Shown: one piece after another, positions 15,762 to 55,805 of the stretch
How the letters are laid out: every line of letters starts with the position of its first letter
Numbering within the stretch: the first letter of the stretch is position 1
Assembly (NCBI GenBank): GCA_020051845.1
Contig: JAGVQG010000056.1
Location: 1-59,942 of the forward strand
Source: an archaeon
Lineage (GTDB): Archaea > Nanobdellota > Nanobdellia > Woesearchaeales > ARS49
Reading direction: 5' to 3'
DNA: 59,942 nucleotides
Program-made: the position numbers and the translations under genes
The notes under the pieces: generated by a model
The model's input: only the letters and a program-made list of their open reading frames with translations
The model's database searches: none
What the model was told of the DNA's origin: nothing

Positions 15762-16466
15762 TCAGATAAGCCGGAATTCCGACAATTCACCGTCGTTCTC
15801 TTTCATCATTGCGCTCTTGAGAGCGATTTTCTTCCCAAGTCTGTTCTTGATCAACCATAGGTCTGACGGCACGACGTTCTTTTCGTCGAGTCCGTCTATC
15901 TTGAACCATCGGGCAGGTCCGTCTTCCGATTTGATCGGTGCGCCTTTCGCGCTGACTGTGGTGAAGAACAGGATGAAGCTGTGCTTGATGATGCCATCGC
16001 CTTCGACACGCTCGTGCAGCACTGCGTTGATGGAGCCGAAAACCGGTTCAAGCCCTGTTTTGGTCTTGATGTGCCTGATGCTCGCGTCCTCGAAGCTTTC
16101 CTCAAGAAGCATCTTACCTCCGATGCAGGTCCAGTAGCCCTTGTACGGCCGTTTCCTGCGCCGGATCATCAGGATCCTGTCCTTGTCCACGCACGCGACG
16201 ATCACGACAGGCACAGGCCCTAATTGCTGGCCCGTGATATGCGAGAATATCGGGATGTAGCGTTCCGCGGTCTTGGTGAGATGGTAATTCTCGCCACGTT
16301 TCTCGAGCAAGCCGTCTTTCTGCATCATCGTGAGGTGATAGGCTAGCGCGTTCGACCTTATTCCCAGTGCCTTCTCGATGTCGCTGAACTTGAACTTGGT
16401 CCTGTCGAGGAACAACTCGAATATCTGCTCGCGTTCCTTTTTGACAAGGCTGCCCGTGTATCTCAT
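15762..16466 (-). CDS. winged-HTH (ArsR/MarR-like) fused to a Nudix-fold domain with a degenerate Nudix box
   Basis: N-terminal FSDIEKALGIRSNALAYHLTMMQKDGLLEK. The Nudix box reads G-x5-E-x7-R-H-I-x-T-K-x-G-L, so the REUxEE glutamates are replaced. It is the last gene of the suf operon, with a 4-nt overlap. Confidence 0.65.
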   Translation of the reverse strand: MRYTGSLVKKEREQIFELFLDRTKFKFSDIEKALGIRSNALAYHLTMMQKDGLLEKRGENYHLTKTAERYIPIFSHITGQQLGPVPVVIVACVDKDRILMIRRRKRPYKGYWTCIGGKMLLEESFEDASIRHIKTKTGLEPVFGSINAVLHERVEGDGIIKHSFILFFTTVSAKGAPIKSEDGPARWFKIDGLDEKNVVPSDLWLIKNRLGKKIALKSAMMKENDGELSEFRLI

Positions 16467-16861
16467 TTTTTCCCCTCATATTCGACTATCGCCATCTTGA
16501 GCACCTTGAATCCGAGCAGCGCGCACTTGAGCCGCATGCCTGATATGGGAACGCCTAACAAATCCAACACTTCCTGCTTGTCCATCGCAATGACATCCGC
16601 GACCTTATTGCCTATGATGTTCTCGGTAAGCATGCTTGTCGCTGCTATCGATATCGCGCATCCTTTGCCGTCGAACTTGACATCTTTGATTATGTCTTTC
16701 TTGACAAGAAGCGTGATGCCGACCTCATCACCGCATGCCGTGTTGACGTCATGCGCATGGCCGTTCGCATTCTTGACGACACCACTGTTCTTGGGATTCC
16801 TGAAGTGGTCGAGGATTATCTCCTGGTACATCTGCTCGTTTGGGAACGTTTTGTTATTCAT
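16463..16861 (-). CDS. sufU: SufU/IscU-type Fe-S cluster scaffold / sulfur acceptor
   Basis: LDHFRNPKN, ACGDEV and GKGCAIS conserved Cys motifs. ATG 16861 overlaps the sufS stop. Confidence 0.88.
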   Translation of the reverse strand: MNNKTFPNEQMYQEIILDHFRNPKNSGVVKNANGHAHDVNTACGDEVGITLLVKKDIIKDVKFDGKGCAISIAATSMLTENIIGNKVADVIAMDKQEVLDLLGVPISGMRLKCALLGFKVLKMAIVEYEGKK

Positions 16862-18066
16862 AGACCGAACACCTTCCTGCAATGCAGCAGCGCGTCGACA
16901 AGCACGTCTATGTCCTCTTTGGTGTTGTATATCTGGAAACTGGCGCGGACGCTTGATTCGAGTCCGAGGCGAGCGTGCAAAGGCATCGCGCAATGATGGC
17001 CGCTGCGGACAGCCACGCCATGATCATCGAGTATCGACGCCACATCGTGCGGCGGTATGCCCTCCATCACGAAAGACACCAATCCGATGCGGTCATCGCT
17101 TCCCAGGATGCTGATGCCAGGCACCTTCTTGAGTTGACGCAATGCATAGTCGGTCAACGTCCGCACGTGGCCAGCGACCTTGTCCATTCCGTATGTCTGC
17201 AGGTAATCGACAGCGGCTGCAAGGCCGATGGCGCCGGCGACATTGGGCGTTCCTGCCTCGAACTTGTGCGGCACGTCATTCCATGTGCTCTTGCTCAGCG
17301 TGACTTCACGTATCATGTCTCCGCCGACGAGGAATGGAGGCATGTGCTCAAGTAGCTCTTTCCGTCCATAAAGCGCTCCGATCCCCGTGGGACCTAGCAT
17401 CTTGTGGCCTGAGAACACAAGGAAGTCGCAGCCGATGTCTTTGACATCGATGGCTGTATGCGAAACGCTCTGGCAGGCATCGACCAATACGACCGCTCCT
17501 GCGTCGTGCGCTCGCCGGGTCATCTCCTTCACAGGATTCAGCGTGCCTAGCACGTTGGAGATTTGCGTGAAAACGACTATCTTGGGCTTTTTCTTGAGGA
17601 ATGACAGGTATTGCTGCTGGTCCAACACACCTCTGCCGTCTATGTCGACGAATGCCAATAGAGCGCCGCGCTCATTGGCGAGCTGTTGCCAGGGGACGAT
17701 ATTGCTGTGGTGCTCCATGACCGTAAGCACAATCAAGTCGCCGCGCTTGAGGTTGGCCATCCCGAATGTCTTGGAGACCAGATTTATTCCTTCGGTGGCG
17801 TTGCGCGTGAAGATGATCTCTTCAGGAGACGAGTTGATGAACGCCGCCACTTTCTTCCTTGCGTTCTCGTAAGCTTCGGTCGCCTCTGCGCTAAGCGTAT
17901 GCACGCCACGATGGACATTGGCGTTCATGGTCTCGTAATACGCCCTTTCCGCGTCGAGCACCGATTCCGGTTTCTGCGACGTCGCGGCGCTGTCCAAGTA
18001 AACCAGCCTTTTTCCGTGCACCTTCCTTGACAATATCGGGAAATCCTTGCCGACTTCTTTAGCCAT
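16858..18066 (-). CDS. sufS: cysteine desulfurase SufS (class V aminotransferase)
   Basis: YLDSAATSQKP, FSGHKMLGPTGIG (PLP Lys) and RSGHHCA (active-site Cys). Confidence 0.93.
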   Translation of the reverse strand: MAKEVGKDFPILSRKVHGKRLVYLDSAATSQKPESVLDAERAYYETMNANVHRGVHTLSAEATEAYENARKKVAAFINSSPEEIIFTRNATEGINLVSKTFGMANLKRGDLIVLTVMEHHSNIVPWQQLANERGALLAFVDIDGRGVLDQQQYLSFLKKKPKIVVFTQISNVLGTLNPVKEMTRRAHDAGAVVLVDACQSVSHTAIDVKDIGCDFLVFSGHKMLGPTGIGALYGRKELLEHMPPFLVGGDMIREVTLSKSTWNDVPHKFEAGTPNVAGAIGLAAAVDYLQTYGMDKVAGHVRTLTDYALRQLKKVPGISILGSDDRIGLVSFVMEGIPPHDVASILDDHGVAVRSGHHCAMPLHARLGLESSVRASFQIYNTKEDIDVLVDALLHCRKVFGL

Positions 18067-18991
18067 TCGAAACCTCCAGTACCGCATCGATCTTTGGACG
18101 CAAGGCCTCGCGGCCCGCGTTCTCAGGCCATTGTTTGATTATGGACTCTATGAACCCCTTGACGATCAACCCGCGCGCTTCTTCGCGGCCGATGCCGCGC
18201 GATTGCAAATAGAACAATTGGGCCTCATCTATCGGTCTGACACTGGCACTGTGGCTTGCCTTGACGTCATTGGCCTCGACTTCAAGTGAGGGGATCGCTT
18301 TTGCGACGGCATCTTTCGAAAGGAGCATCCAGTGGTCTGACAGGAAGCTCTCGGATTTTTGCGCGCGTGCAAGCAATCTCAACATACCGCTAGCCTGCAC
18401 GCTTCCGCTGTTGAGCACGACGCCATTGCGGCTGACATCGGCCTTTGTATGAGGCGAAGAATGTATGACTGCGTTATCAAGCACGATAGAATTATTGCCT
18501 ACCAGGAATTCCCTGTCCATCAACGACGCGCCAGGACCGAGCAGTGTGCTTTGTCTTGTGTATGTGCCTGTCGCATTGATGTGTCCTGCCAATAAAGTGA
18601 GAGATGCGCCGTCTTCCACCAAGAATTCGTGGCGTAGCATGGTGTCGGATTCGTTGACGAGCGTTATGGTCGCTTTGACATCATGTTTGATGAGCACTAT
18701 GTCCAACTCCAGTTTGGTGCCGGGCAGTGGCGTGAGGTCGACGTCGCCGTCTTTGGAGAGCACGACAAAGCGTATGACCGTGTTTCCGAAGCCTCGTTGT
18801 TCCTGGTCCATTATCACGGTGTCTGCCGTCGCTATGGCTAGCAGTGTATGAGGATGTGCGGAAGGAACGACGAGACGCTCGAAGAGCGGAAGTAGCTCGG
18901 CAGGCACGTCTATCTTCGTGCGCTTGTCGACCTTATCCCAACTTGTCTTGAGGAGTTCACGTGCCCTTTCCTGCAGTTCGGAGAAGCTCAT
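18059..18991 (-). CDS. sufD: Fe-S assembly protein SufD
   Basis: SufB/D beta-helix family with [12 protein letters not shown] near the C-terminus. Position between sufB and sufS. Confidence 0.85.
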
Positions 18992-20388
18992 CCTACGCTC
19001 CCCTCCATCTCGAGCTCTATGAGTTTGTTGAGCTCGATGCTGTACTCGAGCGGCAATGCCTTAGTGAATTCCGAGATGAAACCAAGGACAATGAGCGCCA
19101 TGGCCTCTTCCTCTTTCAGGCCGCGCTGCATCAAATAGAACAATTGTTCCTCACCGATCTTGCCGACCGTCGCCTCGTGGCAGACCGTGGCGTCCTCTTC
19201 CTCGACCTGCATCGTCGGATAAGTATCAGAACGGGATTTATCGTCGAGCAAGAGCGCGTCGCAACGAACGCTTGCCTTGACTGAATTGGCGCCCTCGCAC
19301 ACCTTGACAAGGCCGCGATAGCTCGTCCTTCCGCCGTCCTTCGCTATACTCTTGGATATGATCCTGCTCGTGGTTCCTGGAGCCAGATGTATGATCTTGG
19401 CTCCTGCGTCCTGGTGCTGGCCGCGGCCTGCGAAGGCTATGCTAAGCACATCCGCCCTTGAATTCGCGCCTTTCAGGACCACGGAAGGGTATTTCATCGT
19501 TGTCCTGCTACCCAGGTTCCCATCCACCCATTCGACGATGGCGTTCTCGTGCGCGATCGCGCGCTTCGTGACCAGATTATAGACGTCACCCGACCAATTC
19601 TGTATCGTGGTGTAGCGCACCTTGGCGCCTTCGAGCGCGAACACCTCGACGACAGCCGCGTGCAATGAATCTGTCGAATAAACAGGAGCCGTGCATCCCT
19701 CGATGTAGTGCACCTCTGCGCCTTTGTCGACGATTATGAGCGTGCGTTCGAACTGGCCCATGTTCTTGGCGTTTATGCGGAAGTAGGCCTGCAGAGGCAC
19801 CTCGACCTTGACTCCAGGCGGCACGTAGATGAAGCTTCCGCCGCTCCAGACAGCGCTGTTGAGCGCCGCGAACTTGTTGTCGCTTGTGGGCACGAGCGTT
19901 GAGAGGTATTTCTTGACGAGTTCAGGATGATCCTTGAGTGCGCTGTCCATGTCGGTGAAGATGACCCCTTTCTCCGACAGGTCGTCGCGTAGTTTGTGGT
20001 AGACCGATTCCGATTCGAATTGCGCGCCGACTCCACCGAGGAACTTCCTCTCCGCCTCAGGCACGCCTAGACGGTCGAAGGTCTTCTTGATGTGTTCTGG
20101 CACGTCTTCCCAGCGTTTCGCGCTCTCCTCAGACGGCTTGAGGTAGTAGGTTATCTTGTCGAAATCGATCTGGGACAGGTCCGCTCCCCACGAAGGCATT
20201 TGCTTCACGAGGAATATCTTGAACGCGTTGAGCCTGAAATCGAGCATCCATCGCGGCTCGCCTTTCTTGGCGCTTAGCTCACGTATGACTTCCTCATTGA
20301 GGCCTTTTGGTGATCGGAATACCGCCTTCTCGCTCACGTGGAAGCCGTACTTCTCGCCATAATCATCGTTGATGGAGCCGATTCCCAT
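18988..20388 (-). CDS. sufB: Fe-S assembly protein SufB
   Basis: A 466-aa protein with typical SufB motifs ([20 protein letters not shown]). Confidence 0.95.
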
Positions 20389-20392
20389 GCAA

Positions 20393-21268
20393 TCAGACCA
20401 CCTTCAGTTTGACTTCACCATATCCTTCTTTCTCGATCTTGTCGATGAGTGCCGGACCATCTGTCTGCGTTATGGCGCCGTTCATCATTATGTGGACGCT
20501 GTCAGGCTCCATCTTGCTCGCGTGCTTTGGAAGGTGGGTTATCAGTATGACGCCAAGGCACGGTCCACGTATCTTGTTGAAAGCGTCGCGCACGACGCGC
20601 AGCGCGTCTATGTCAAGGCCGGAGTCTGTCTCGTCGAATATCGCGAACGCGGGCTTTGTGAGCAGGAGCTGCAGCATCTCGACTTTCTTCTTCTCGCCGC
20701 CGGAGAATCCGACATTGAGCTGCCTGTCGATGAAGGCGCGGTCGAGCTTGAGCGCCTTCAGGCTTGCGTTGAGGTCGCGGTTGAAGTCGGCCGCCTTGGC
20801 ATCCTTGCCATACCTTGCCTTGTAAAGATGGAAAAGGAACGTCCCCAGGTTGATGTCTATCTCCTGAGGGTTTTGGAAGGCGAGGAAGATCCCGAGCCTT
20901 GCGCGCTCGTCTGGCTCCAGCCCTAGAACGTTCTTCGAATTCAATGTCACCGTGCCTTTTGATATCTCATAGGCCGGATGGCCTGCTATCGCCATCGCGA
21001 GCGTGCTCTTGCCTGCTCCGTTCGGTCCCATCAAAACGTGCACCTCACCTTGCCTGACAGTGAGGTCGACTCCTTTGAGCACTTCCTTGCCATGGACGCT
21101 GACGTGCAGGTTCTTCACTGCCAGCACCGCGCGTCGAGGGCACTTCTTCCGCGAGTCCTCGTCCTTGCAGCCGCAGCCGCAACCGAGGTCCTTGATCGTC
21201 CTGGGAGGCACTCCCTCGTCGTATTGATCGAGTATCTTCATTGCTTCTTCGAATCCCATTTCATTCAC
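20393..21268 (-). CDS. sufC: Fe-S assembly ATPase SufC with an about 50-aa Cys-rich N-terminal extension
   Basis: Walker [13 protein letters not shown] signature FSGGEKK and Walker [13 protein letters not shown]. The N-terminus contains [18 protein letters not shown]. The ATG overlaps the upstream regulator by 8 nt. Internal GTG starts at 21127 and 21118 cannot be excluded. Confidence 0.9.
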
Positions 21269-21629
21269 CTTGGTAGCATAATTTGCAGGCTGGCGCGACG
21301 TTTTTGTCCATCTTCAGGTGCATTTTGCACAGAAGCTTGGCCTTGTTCGCGTCCTTGACAAGATGCTGGAGCTGTGCGTAAGCCGATGCCTGGTCTTTGA
21401 CTGTCTTGGCGCGTTCGCGCACCTTTTTCACGAACGTCGGAGGCAGTTCCATGTCTGTGCCGCGCTTGCCGCTGATGTAATGGCTGACAGCCGCTCCTGT
21501 GACCCCGAGCAGTTCCGCTATCGTCTTCTGGTCCTTGCCGAGTTCCTTTAGCGCACGCGCGAGTTCGCGGCGCAGCGCTGGAAGCAGGTAGAATGCCTCT
21601 ATCTCCTGCGGTTGCAATACCTTGAGCAT
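21261..21629 (-). CDS. HTH transcriptional regulator with C-terminal Cys cluster (first gene of suf operon)
   Basis: HTH QKTIAELLGVTGAAVSHYISGKRG. The C-terminus LLCKMH...[10 protein letters not shown] has three Cys and one His. Confidence 0.65.
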   Translation of the reverse strand: MLKVLQPQEIEAFYLLPALRRELARALKELGKDQKTIAELLGVTGAAVSHYISGKRGTDMELPPTFVKKVRERAKTVKDQASAYAQLQHLVKDANKAKLLCKMHLKMDKNVAPACKLCYQGE

Positions 21630-21648: not shown

Positions 21649-21672
21649 AGTTATTAACAATAGTTAATAACT
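21649..21672. promoter_or_regulatory. perfect 10-bp inverted repeat (candidate operator) between TATA box and suf operon start
   Basis: AGTTATTAAC-AATA-GTTAATAACT. It is immediately flanked by the TATA-like GATATATAAATC (21673-21684) and lies 20 nt from ATG 21629. Confidence 0.6.
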
Positions 21673-21684
21673 GATATATAAATC
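21673..21684 (-). promoter_or_regulatory. TATA box of suf operon
   Basis: The minus-strand reading is GATTTATATATC, about 45-55 nt upstream of ATG 21629. Confidence 0.45.
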
Positions 21685-26206: not shown

Positions 26207-26940
26207 TGAGACTCGTTTTTCTCCGGCCGCTCGTCGAAGGCGTCATCCGGTCACGACCGAATAGGTTCATCATGAACGTCGACATCGGCGGTGTGTCGGC
26301 GCGCTGCCATTGCCCGTCGACAGGCCGCATCAGCAGCATCGAGTTCAAGCACATCCCCTGCCTTCTATCGAAGAGCGATGATCCTGCAAGGAAGACGCCC
26401 TACACTGTCGAGGCGTTCTCGCTCGACCCCCTGGGCAGAAAGGACAAGGAATGGATCGGCATCAACCAGAACAAGGCCAACGACTACGTCGATTTTTTCC
26501 TGCGCGCAGGAAAACTGTCAAGGATGACTGGAAAGACACGGGTGATACAACGCGAGGTCCGTCTCGGCACGTCACGCATCGACTTTCTCATCAATGGCAA
26601 GGACTTCATCGAGGTCAAGACACCGCTGTCAATGATTCCCTGCGACGGCCATCCCCGCTGCAGGCAATCCGTCCCGACGATGACTGGTTTCGACCGCACC
26701 ATCAAGCATTTCGGCGACATATCAAAGAGCATAAGCCATGGCTCACGCGCCATCATACTTCTCTGCTTCATGTACAAAGCCAAACCCTTCGAGGTGCCAA
26801 ATCCCGGGCGCCATGAGCTGTCCATCGTGCGCGCAGCGCGCCACGCAAGAAGTCGAGGCATGGAGAACTGGCAGATCAACCTCAGGATCGACAAGAAGGG
26901 CGTCGAGCTGCTGGACTGCTTCAGGTTGAGGCTGTTCTGA
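26206..26940 (+). CDS. sfsA: SfsA-family protein (PD-(D/E)xK nuclease fold)
   Basis: RPNRFIMNV, CHCPSTGRI and SRIDFLI...IEVK parallel E. coli SfsA motifs. Confidence 0.8.
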   Translation: MRLVFLRPLVEGVIRSRPNRFIMNVDIGGVSARCHCPSTGRISSIEFKHIPCLLSKSDDPARKTPYTVEAFSLDPLGRKDKEWIGINQNKANDYVDFFLRAGKLSRMTGKTRVIQREVRLGTSRIDFLINGKDFIEVKTPLSMIPCDGHPRCRQSVPTMTGFDRTIKHFGDISKSISHGSRAIILLCFMYKAKPFEVPNPGRHELSIVRAARHARSRGMENWQINLRIDKKGVELLDCFRLRLF

Positions 26941-55556: not shown

Positions 55557-55728
55557 ACGTTTTGCTATCAAAAAAACGTATGGCGTTTCTTGCGCACGGA
55601 ACCACGTTCCGTTGCGCTCACGATCATCAAAAGCTTGATTAGAATATTATCCGCGTGAGCCGGCGCTCCGCGCCTTCACACACAGGAGCGGTTTTGGTAG
55701 AGCTTTTTATCACGCGAGTGATAAAAAG
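55557..55728. repeat. second hairpin cluster sharing modules with the 44.5-kb array
   Basis: Hairpins at 55557-55579, 55592-55617 (near-copy of 44525-44552), 55655-55679 (CGC-UCC-GCG apex as in 44575-44604) and 55703-55728 (11 bp, GCGA loop). Confidence 0.65.
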
Positions 55729-55732
55729 GTCT

Positions 55733-55805
55733 GGGGCTGCGAGGATTTGAACCCCGATTACTACCACCCCAAGGTAATGTCCTAACCAAGTTAGACTACA
55801 GCCCC
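55733..55805 (-). tRNA. tRNA-Pro (anticodon GGG)
   Basis: Folded by hand. Acceptor GGGGCUG/CAGCCCC, D stem GUCU/GGAC, anticodon stem UUACC/GGUAG with loop UUGGGGU, T arm CGGGG-UUCAAAU-CCUCG. A TATA-like element at 55833-55841 lies 28 nt upstream. Confidence 0.88.

What the first reader, a model, noticed from the sequence alone, without database searches (positions are those of the whole stretch)
21649..21684. Perfect 10+10 bp palindrome wedged between the TATA box and start of a seven-gene suf operon whose first gene is a Cys-bearing HTH regulator
AGTTATTAAC-AATA-GTTAATAACT (21649-21672) directly abuts the TATA-like GATTTATATATC on the minus strand and ends 20 nt before ATG 21629. That position would occlude TBP/TFB or RNA polymerase, the classical geometry of archaeal repression. 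The first gene encodes a 122-aa HTH protein whose C-terminus has C-x13-C-x2-C plus a His. This fits an Fe-S or redox-sensing autoregulator of sufCBDSU, analogous to but not homologous with bacterial SufR or IscR. Six of the seven gene junctions overlap by 4-8 nt, and the sufC-sufB junction has a 4-nt gap.
Basis: partly seen in the sequence, partly recalled or inferred. Interest (0 to 1): 0.6.

Follow-up and report, generated by a model that had tools for sequence, protein, structure and literature searches.

The report
Archaeal Fe-S assembly repressor and operator
The palindrome is real and is very probably the docking site of the small cysteine-tailed DNA-binding protein encoded next to it; together they look like an undescribed switch that turns off iron-sulfur-cluster assembly genes in tiny DPANN archaea, a counterpart of bacterial SufR and IscR built on a different protein.

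Summary
AGTTATTAAC-AATA-GTTAATAACT lies at 21649-21672. It abuts the minus-strand TATA box (21682-21675) and ends 19 nt before the ATG at 21629, which starts a seven-gene operon: regulator, sufC, sufB, sufD, sufS, sufU, HTH-Nudix.

Only the inner 14 bp is conserved: TTAAC-n-AT-n-GTTAA. The outer 5+5 bp are lineage-specific. The genome belongs to a Woesearchaeota/Nanoarchaeota (DPANN) archaeon.

- In 97 non-redundant relatives, 54 carry the perfect core within 100 nt upstream of the regulator gene. About 0.2 are expected by chance.
- When the regulator heads an Fe-S operon, 63 of 65 loci have the site.
- When the regulator lies behind or divergent from the Fe-S genes, the site sits at the sufB or sufS promoter instead.
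- Genomes of about 1 Mb hold one or two perfect sites, nearly all at suf promoters.
- The site co-occurs with the regulator: 15 of 20 regulator-bearing genomes against 1 of 20 without it.

The protein family is known only as a generic HTH and has no fold match in the PDB. It keeps an invariant C-x2-(H/C)-x10-12-C-x2-C motif.

The best reading is an autoregulated repressor that blocks polymerase recruitment. Fe-S cluster sensing is plausible but untested; structural zinc is not excluded. I found no publication on this family.

The parts
21654..21667 (-). Core operator, TTAAC-T-AT-T-GTTAA on the minus strand. This is the family consensus TTAAC-n-AT-n-GTTAA.
   Evidence: A profile of 81 sites shows 12 near-invariant positions. 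It is the only site in the own genome with 0 or 1 mismatch. The core is enriched about 280-fold upstream of orthologous regulators.
21649..21672 (.). Full 10+4+10 palindrome as reported. The outer 5+5 bp (AGTTA/TAACT) are specific to this lineage.
   Evidence: Searches confirm the palindrome. The flanking positions carry only 0.03-0.5 bits across relatives.
21675..21682 (-). TATA box TTTATATA. The inferred transcription start is near 21652 and has not been mapped.
   Evidence: Read directly from the sequence. TTTATA(T/A)A-like boxes lie 7-25 nt upstream of the site in relatives.
21261..21629 (-). 122-aa regulator. It has an N-terminal long helix, an XRE/Cro-like HTH (recognition helix about residues 45-53, AAVSHY), three further helices and a C-terminal C101-x2-H104-x10-C115-x2-C118 metal site.
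   Evidence: Pfam gives only HTH_3 at 25.6 bits and NCBIfam gives nothing. The AF2 model has pLDDT 91.8. No PDB fold match reaches E<=1e-3.
20393..21268 (-). sufC, with a Cys-rich N-terminal extension of about 45 aa.
   Evidence: TIGR01978, 280.6 bits.
18988..20388 (-). sufB
   Evidence: TIGR01980, 714 bits.
18059..18991 (-). sufD-like gene, short and below the equivalog cut-off.
   Evidence: SUFBD_core, 122 bits. TIGR01981 gives 135 bits against a cut-off of 222.
16858..18087 (-). sufS cysteine desulfurase. The likely start is the ATG at 18066.
   Evidence: TIGR01979, 592 bits.
16463..16861 (-). sufU
   Evidence: TIGR01994, 99.7 bits against a cut-off of 92.5. NifU_N.
15762..16466 (-). Last gene of the operon, a winged-HTH plus Nudix fusion. 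It is not the partner of the operator.
   Evidence: Pfam NUDIX plus weak HTH_20. Full-length homologues occur in only about 7 of 22 site-bearing genomes and lie on other contigs.

Best explanation
The palindrome is the operator of the 122-aa HTH protein encoded as the first gene of the operon.

**Proposed mechanism**
- A dimer of the protein binds TTAAC-n-AT-n-GTTAA, one recognition helix per half-site.
- The site lies between the TATA box and the transcription start, at about -15 to -2. The extended palindrome spans about -20 to +4.
- A bound dimer therefore prevents RNA polymerase recruitment or promoter opening. It shuts off the regulator's own gene together with sufCBDSU.
- The C-terminal Cys3-(His/Cys) site is the likely sensor. 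The favoured model has the site receive an Fe-S cluster from the SUF machinery. The cluster-bound form represses, and loss of the cluster (high Fe-S demand, iron shortage or oxidants) releases the DNA. This is a negative-feedback loop of the SufR type.

**Shown here by computation**
- The site is conserved and almost exclusive to Fe-S operon promoters.
- The site co-occurs with the regulator.
- The site has repressor-type geometry.
- The four ligand positions are invariant.

**Inferred**
- Direct binding.
- Repression rather than activation.
- The identity of the metal.
- The direction of the switch.

**My odds**
- Regulator-operator pair: about 0.85.
- Repressor: about 0.75.
- Fe-S cluster as the signal: about 0.5.
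For: **Enrichment and placement of the site**
- Of 97 non-redundant loci from relatives, 54 have a perfect core within 100 nt upstream of the regulator start. 69 have a core with at most one mismatch.
- The background rates are 0.002 and 0.007 per equivalent stretch (binomial p about 1e-118).
- The site is present in 63 of 65 loci where the regulator precedes sufC, sufB, a cysteine desulfurase or sufU. It is present upstream of the regulator in only 4 of 27 loci where the regulator lies behind or divergent from those genes.
- In those 27 loci the site is found at the promoter of sufB or sufS instead.

**Whole-genome counts**
- Eight genomes of about 1 Mb hold one or two perfect sites each. Nine of the 11 sites lie between a TATA box and the first suf gene. 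The reversed control pattern gave 0 hits.
- The own genome has one perfect site, none with one mismatch (1.9 expected) and 16 with two mismatches (33 expected).

**Co-occurrence with the regulator**
- A perfect site at an Fe-S promoter occurs in 15 of 20 regulator-bearing genomes against 1 of 20 regulator-less genomes (Fisher p=1e-5).
- Ten regulator-less genomes that do have sufB show no site with at most one mismatch near it.

**Geometry**
- Sites fall into two main groups: abutting the TATA box, or 23-25 nt downstream of it.
- In the downstream group the spacer often reads TATG, and that ATG appears to be the start codon of a leaderless mRNA whose product begins MVNR.

**The protein**
- The recognition helix (S49, Y51, K55, R56) and the N-terminal PQE-E-Y-P-R motif are invariant.
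- The two loci with symmetric TTCAC...GTGAA operators are the only ones with S-T in place of A-A in the recognition helix.
- Ligand positions: C101 in 78 of 78, His (67) or Cys (11) at position 104, C115 in 77 of 78 and C118 in 78 of 78.
Against: - No binding, expression or metal data exist.
- C-x2-(H/C)-x10-12-C-x2-C is also a typical structural zinc motif.
- The direction of the switch (holo-repressor) is borrowed from SufR.
- One regulator-less genome (G018) still has the site in front of sufS-sufU.
- About 25 of the 97 loci lack a recognisable site upstream of the regulator. For four of them I looked further and found the site at the operon's first gene.
- A perfect 10+10 inverted repeat alone is only weakly improbable in 60 kb.
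Confidence: 0.72

Rival explanations
1. The regulator-operator pairing holds, but the Cys3-His site binds structural zinc. The protein then senses something else, such as a small ligand, a partner protein like SufC with its Cys-rich extension, or thiol oxidation of a zinc-thiolate. Alternatively it is a constitutive autorepressor that merely damps operon expression.
For: - C-x2-(H/C)-x10-12-C-x2-C has the spacing of zinc knuckles and ribbons.
- All four ligands lie in the last 22 residues.
- His/Cys exchange at one ligand position is common in zinc sites.
- No computational test here separates zinc from Fe-S.
Against: - The family is tied almost exclusively to Fe-S biogenesis genes, whichever machinery follows: sufCB, sufB alone, or an IscS-like desulfurase with IscU/SufU.
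- That pattern is expected of a sensor of Fe-S status.
- The protein has no other candidate sensor domain.
Confidence: 0.25
2. The operator is bound by a different factor, for example the winged-HTH-Nudix protein encoded at the end of the same operon, and the 122-aa protein has another role.
For: The operon encodes a second HTH protein at 15762-16466.
Against: - Full-length homologues of the HTH-Nudix protein occur in only about 7 of 22 site-bearing genomes and lie on other contigs than the suf locus.
- The site tracks the 122-aa protein: 15 of 20 genomes with it against 1 of 20 without it, and 0 of 10 in regulator-less genomes that have sufB.
- An operator variant coincides with a change in the recognition helix of the 122-aa protein.
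Confidence: 0.04
3. The inverted repeat acts as an RNA hairpin (5' leader structure, attenuator, or terminator of the upstream 109-aa gene), or it is a chance feature of an A+T-rich promoter.
For: - The 24-mer folds to -10.4 kcal/mol with z=-3.1.
- One or more perfect 10-nt inverted repeats occur in 32% of simulated windows.
Against: - The arms are invariant in sequence across about 80 sites rather than covarying.
- The two n positions are not kept complementary: spacers include TATG, CATA and TATC.
- Only 5+5 nt are conserved, which is too short for a stable hairpin.
- The inferred transcription start lies inside the repeat, so most of it would not be transcribed.
- In many relatives the spacer holds the start codon.
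- Chance cannot explain the enrichment or the co-occurrence with the regulator.
Confidence: 0.02

Closest known systems
SufR (cyanobacteria; actinobacteria such as Rv1460; see PMC6034842)
   Same: - It is encoded at the head of, or next to, the suf operon and is autoregulated.
- It binds palindromes in the suf promoter.
- It carries C-terminal cysteines that hold an Fe-S cluster, and it represses when cluster-loaded.
- This is the functional model I propose here.
   Different: - SufR has a winged-helix DNA-binding domain of the ArsR/DeoR type and a different Cys spacing. It is bacterial and acts on sigma-70 promoters.
- The protein here is an XRE/Cro-like HTH with a novel helical C-terminal half. 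It matches no SufR model and acts on a TATA/TFB promoter.
IscR (Rrf2 family, [2Fe-2S], bacteria)
   Same: - It is the first gene of an Fe-S biogenesis operon and gives feedback control by its own cluster occupancy.
- Its ligand set is three Cys and one His, like C101, H104, C115 and C118 here.
   Different: - IscR is a winged helix of the Rrf2 family (PF02082), which does not match here.
- IscR controls a wide regulon and has two site types. This regulator has one operator in the own genome and one or two in relatives.
Archaeal repressors that bind at or just downstream of the TATA box (MDR1, LrpA, Phr, TrmB family); from my own knowledge
   Same: The operator lies between the TATA box and the start, or on the start itself. 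Such a position allows TBP/TFB binding but blocks RNA polymerase recruitment.
   Different: They belong to other protein families (DtxR, Lrp/AsnC, wHTH, TrmB) with other signals. None controls Fe-S assembly.
XRE/Cro-type HTH proteins with a zinc module (MqsA antitoxin, archaeal MBF1)
   Same: A small protein that combines a Cro-like HTH with a four-ligand Cys/His metal site. There is a weak hit of the HTH to the MqsA family model, 17.5 bits against a cut-off of 61.8.
   Different: In MqsA and MBF1 the zinc module is N-terminal and the HTH C-terminal, and the genomic context is unrelated. Here the order is reversed and the whole-chain fold has no PDB match.

Membership tests
XRE/Cro-C1 HTH superfamily (Pfam HTH_3, PF01381) | The sequence matches the HTH_3 profile above the gathering score. 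| tested here: met
   The score is 25.6 bits against a cut-off of 23, over residues 23-61. 25 of 29 relatives match at E<=0.01. The match covers the DNA-binding module only.
XRE/Cro-C1 HTH superfamily (Pfam HTH_3, PF01381) | Five-helix Cro/C1 fold of the DNA-binding domain. | tested here: inconclusive
   The AF2 model is all-helical with a 23-residue first helix. The best PDB matches are XRE-type proteins, but only at TM 0.27-0.34 and E>=0.47.
SufR | Homology to the SufR family model (ArsR/DeoR-type winged helix plus C-terminal Cys domain). | tested here: not met
   No SufR model appears among the NCBIfam hits at E<=0.01. Pfam shows no SufR-type domain.
SufR | Encoded next to suf genes, with a palindromic operator in the suf promoter. 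| tested here: met
SufR | Binds an Fe-S cluster through conserved cysteines, and DNA binding depends on the cluster. | not testable with these tools
   Only the conservation of C101, H/C104, C115 and C118 could be shown.
IscR / Rrf2 family | Rrf2 winged-helix domain (PF02082). | tested here: not met
   Absent from the Pfam hits of the protein and of 29 relatives.
IscR / Rrf2 family | Three Cys plus one His as cluster ligands. | tested here: inconclusive
   The ligand composition is the same (Cys3-His in 67 of 78, Cys4 in 11 of 78). The spacing and fold differ, and the metal is unknown.
Archaeal TATA-proximal repressors (a functional class) | The operator overlaps or lies just downstream of the TATA box or transcription start. 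| tested here: met
   In the window the core starts 15 nt after the first T of the TATA box. In relatives the distance clusters at 7-11, 13-16 and 23-25 nt. The transcription start itself is not mapped.
Archaeal TATA-proximal repressors (a functional class) | The protein binds the operator and lowers transcription. | not testable with these tools
   This needs EMSA or footprinting and in vitro transcription.

The most novel reading that the evidence does not exclude
This protein and its 14-bp operator represent the missing archaeal Fe-S-status sensor. It would be a cluster-ligating transcription factor family unrelated to IscR, SufR and RirA. It would govern whichever Fe-S machinery a DPANN archaeon has (SUF, or an IscS/IscU-like pair). 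Related Cys-tailed HTH proteins may do the same job across other archaeal phyla; earlier notes of this scan suggest this, but I did not test it.
Probability: 0.45. Interest if true: 0.78.

Novelty: new variant of a known kind. Interest (0 to 1): 0.6.

Why it matters
**The gap it would fill.** From my own knowledge, no dedicated regulator of Fe-S cluster biogenesis has been characterised in Archaea. Five full-text searches found none. Public records call members of this family only "helix-turn-helix domain-containing protein", "transcriptional regulator" or "hypothetical protein".

**How widespread it is.** The family occurs in 210 of 301 high-quality genomes of the phylum, nearly always as a single copy.

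**Why it is a good test case.** DPANN archaea have few transcription factors and cannot be grown alone. A factor with one predicted operator per genome and a defined 14-bp site is therefore one of the few regulatory circuits of these organisms that can be tested entirely in vitro.

**If the metal site holds an Fe-S cluster.** It would be a further independent invention of the same logic as IscR and SufR: the cluster-assembly machine feeds its own repressor. It would do so on an archaeal TBP/TFB promoter.

Tried and rejected
**Other copies of the palindrome in the own genome.**
- None were found. The full site needs at least 5 mismatches for the next hit.
- The 14-mer has no hit with one mismatch.
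- The 16 hits with two mismatches are fewer than expected. The four I inspected lie at unrelated genes.

**Rfam families and tRNAs near the site.** The window holds only two tRNAs, both elsewhere.

**Solved structures.**
- By sequence, only generic Cro/lambda-repressor-like HTH matches appeared, best E=8e-6 over 56 residues.
- By fold, nothing reached E<=1e-3.

**The HTH-Nudix protein as operator partner.** Rejected from its phylogenetic profile.

**RNA hairpin reading.** Rejected from the conservation pattern.

**Literature.** Five searches gave no paper on this family. One candidate (PMC6981617) mentions an XRE regulator and sufB only in unrelated sentences.

Full report
**1. Observation**

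The window reads AGTTATTAAC-AATA-GTTAATAACT at 21649-21672, a perfect 10+10 inverted repeat with a 4-nt spacer.

On the minus strand the sequence is CATAAGA-TTTATATA-TC-AGTTATTAAC-TATT-GTTAATAACT-AGGGTTTCAGGGAGAACAA-ATG.
- The TATA box occupies 21682-21675.
- The palindrome starts two bases after the TATA box.
- The ATG of a 122-aa ORF (21629-21261) follows 19 nt after the palindrome.

Downstream on the same strand lie six more genes:
- sufC (TIGR01978, 281 bits)
- sufB (TIGR01980, 714 bits)
- a short sufD-like gene
- sufS (TIGR01979, 592 bits)
- sufU (TIGR01994, 99.7 bits)
- a winged-HTH-Nudix fusion

The genes are packed with 4-8-nt overlaps, and there is a 4-nt gap between sufC and sufB. 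Seven genes have six junctions, not seven.

The exact palindrome is unique in the window and in the 1.33-Mb, 52.8% G+C genome. Length alone is weak evidence. Perfect inverted repeats with arms of at least 10 nt and a loop of at most 8 nt occur at three places in the window, against 0.45 expected.

**2. Organism and protein**

Record titles of the closest relatives name Woesearchaeota, Nanoarchaeota and Nanoarchaeia. This is therefore a DPANN archaeon with a small genome.

The 122-aa protein matches only the generic HTH_3 model in Pfam (25.6 bits, cut-off 23). It matches nothing above cut-off in NCBIfam, and the same holds for 29 relatives. Public records call members "helix-turn-helix domain-containing protein", "transcriptional regulator" or "hypothetical protein".

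A profile of 78 members gave these counts:
- 842 clusters at 50% identity with E<=1e-10 among 1.84 billion representatives.
- A match in 210 of 301 high-quality genomes of the phylum, almost always as a single copy.

Invariant residues are P7, Q8, E9, E11, Y14, P17, R20, Y51, R56, C101 and C118. C115 is present in 77 of 78 sequences. Position 104 is His in 67 and Cys in 11. The C-terminal motif is therefore C-x2-(H/C)-x10-12-C-x2-C, a four-ligand metal site.

AlphaFold2 with this alignment gives a confident all-helical model (pLDDT 91.8, pTM 0.85). Its helices span residues 7-29, 34-41, 45-53, 64-74, 80-96 and 99-107. No PDB chain matches at E<=1e-3, and the best TM-scores are 0.27-0.34 to XRE-type proteins. 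A sequence profile search of the PDB finds only Cro/lambda-repressor-like HTH domains.

**3. The operator is conserved, but only its inner 14 bp**

I oriented 110 loci from relatives, of which 100 are non-redundant, and read the DNA before each regulator gene. The same box recurs throughout. A profile of 81 sites gives TTAAC-n-AT-n-GTTAA, with 12 positions at 1.4-2.0 bits and flanks at 0.5 bits or less.

The window's site fits the core perfectly (TTAAC-T-AT-T-GTTAA, 21667-21654 on the minus strand). Its outer AGTTA/TAACT arms are a lineage-specific extension.

Among 97 loci with enough upstream sequence:
- 54 have a perfect core within 100 nt of the regulator start.
- 69 have a core with at most one mismatch.
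- The rest of the same loci give 0.002 and 0.007 per equivalent stretch (binomial p about 1e-118).

**4. The site follows the Fe-S promoter, not the regulator gene**

The gene after the regulator differs between loci. It is sufC-sufB in some, sufB in others, and an IscS-like cysteine desulfurase followed by IscU/SufU in many.
- Where the regulator precedes such genes on the same strand, 63 of 65 loci have the site.
- Where the regulator lies behind the Fe-S genes or divergent from them, only 4 of 27 have a site in front of the regulator.
- In those loci the box appears at the promoter of sufB or sufS instead.

I then searched eight whole genomes of about 1 Mb for the perfect 14-mer. They include the lineage whose regulator sits at the end of the operon.
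- Each genome has one or two copies, and the reversed control pattern has none.
- Nine of the 11 copies lie between a TATA box and the first suf gene. One example reads ATTTATAAATAA-TTAACAATAGTTAA-...ATG of sufB.

The own genome has one perfect site, none with one mismatch (1.9 expected) and 16 with two mismatches (33 expected). The four of these that I inspected lie at unrelated genes. The regulon here is a single operator.

**5. The site co-occurs with the 122-aa protein**

I searched 20 genomes that encode the regulator and 20 that lack it.
- A perfect site at an Fe-S promoter is present in 15 of the regulator-bearing genomes and 1 of the regulator-less ones (Fisher p=1e-5).
- The five regulator-bearing genomes without a perfect site belong to two genera. 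Representatives of both, read earlier, carry one-mismatch variants: TTCAC...GTTAA and TTAAC...GTAAA.
- Ten of the regulator-less genomes do have sufB. None has a site with at most one mismatch within 1.5 kb of it.

The second HTH protein of the operon, the Nudix fusion, is not co-distributed with the site. Full-length homologues occur in about 7 of 22 site-bearing genomes, on other contigs.

There is also a hint of direct readout. The only two loci with a symmetric TTCAC-n4-GTGAA operator are also the only two whose recognition helix reads E-S-T-(I/V)-S-Q-Y instead of E-A-A-V-S-Q-Y. This rests on two cases.

**6. Geometry and mechanism**

In relatives the distance from the first T of the TATA box to the site clusters at 7-11 nt, 13-16 nt and 23-25 nt.
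- At 7-11 nt the site abuts the TATA box.
- At 23-25 nt the spacer is typically TATG, and this ATG opens the reading frame (MVNR...). The operator then sits on the start of what looks like a leaderless mRNA.

In the window the distance is 15 nt. The start is inferred near 21652, assuming the usual archaeal TATA position centred at about -26; this is established knowledge, not measured here. On that basis the core covers about -15 to -2 and the full palindrome about -20 to +4.

From my own knowledge of archaeal repressors such as MDR1, LrpA and Phr, a dimer bound in this position leaves TBP/TFB binding possible. It blocks polymerase recruitment or promoter opening. Because the regulator is the first cistron, the circuit is autoregulatory.

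**7. What the metal site does**

The protein has no other candidate sensor, and it is tied to Fe-S biogenesis genes whichever machinery is present. The simplest model is that the Cys3-(His/Cys) site receives an Fe-S cluster, and that cluster occupancy sets DNA affinity, as in SufR and IscR.

The spacing is equally typical of structural zinc, and no tool here can separate the two. I put Fe-S sensing at about 0.5. The direction of the switch (holo form represses) is taken by analogy with SufR.

**8. Rivals**

- *An RNA hairpin.* The repeat folds at -10.4 kcal/mol with z=-3.1. Against this, the arms are invariant rather than covarying, the two n positions are not kept complementary, only 5+5 nt are conserved, and the inferred start lies inside the repeat.
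- *Chance.* Excluded by sections 3 to 5.
- *Another binding protein.* Made unlikely by section 5.

**9. Comparison and novelty**

Functionally the system resembles SufR-controlled suf operons (PMC6034842 for the mycobacterial case) and IscR-controlled isc operons. By sequence and predicted fold it belongs to neither family. It shares only the XRE-type HTH with known proteins.

Full-text searches found no paper on an archaeal suf regulator of this kind.

Earlier notes of this scan describe the same kind of regulator-plus-palindrome pair in other archaeal genomes. I read them after reaching my conclusions. They are not independent evidence, and I did not test their claims about other phyla.

I rate the finding as a new variant of a known kind: a known regulatory logic on a new protein scaffold and on an archaeal promoter.

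**10. Limits**

Everything here is comparative and computational. DNA binding, repression and the metal all remain to be shown.

Noticed in passing
window 21119-21268 (minus strand): SufC has an N-terminal extension of about 45 residues with GCGCGC...C. The start [10 protein letters not shown] is conserved in the same-genus relative L002. A Cys-rich tail on the scaffold ATPase next to a Cys-tailed regulator could matter for cluster hand-over.
   Followed up: no
window 15762-16466 (minus strand): The last gene of the operon is a winged-HTH plus Nudix fusion. Full-length homologues occur in only about 7 of 22 related genomes and lie away from the suf locus, so its place in this operon is lineage-specific.
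   Followed up: partly
window 55699-55732: A 15-nt-arm inverted repeat, AGAGCTTTTTATCAC/GTGATAAAAAGGTCT (93% complementary, 4-nt loop), abuts the end of the tRNA-Pro gene at 55732-55805 on the minus strand.
   Followed up: no
window 26495-26514: A perfect 20-bp palindrome, TTTTCCTGCGCGCAGGAAAA. It is one of only three perfect inverted repeats with arms of 10 nt or more in the window.
   Followed up: no
L119 1501-1514 (genome G065, contig C8 29579-29592): In a relative, a second perfect operator copy lies just downstream of a TATA-like box in front of an unannotated 203-aa gene (MTERTLPPELQALVELPD...), away from the suf locus. It may be an extra regulon member.
   Followed up: partly
L010 1357-1370 and 1890-1903; L009 158-171 and 3088-3101: In one genus the regulator has no site of its own. 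Sites sit at the divergently transcribed sufB and in front of the gene after the regulator, so the circuit there is not autoregulatory in the simple sense.
   Followed up: partly
L133 1501-1514 (genome G018): A genome in which no regulator homologue was found (97% complete) still has a perfect operator between a TATA box and sufS-sufU. Either the regulator gene is missing from the assembly or another factor uses the site.
   Followed up: no
L092 and L107, upstream of the regulator: Symmetric operator variants TTCAC-n4-GTGAA coincide with S-T instead of A-A in the recognition helix. This may be coevolution of protein and site, but it rests on only two cases.
   Followed up: partly
L101 (record DATILO010000059.1): A 5.8-kb contig carrying this archaeal regulator, sufC and sufB is filed under a 'Candidatus Binatia bacterium' MAG. 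It is probably a binning error.
   Followed up: no
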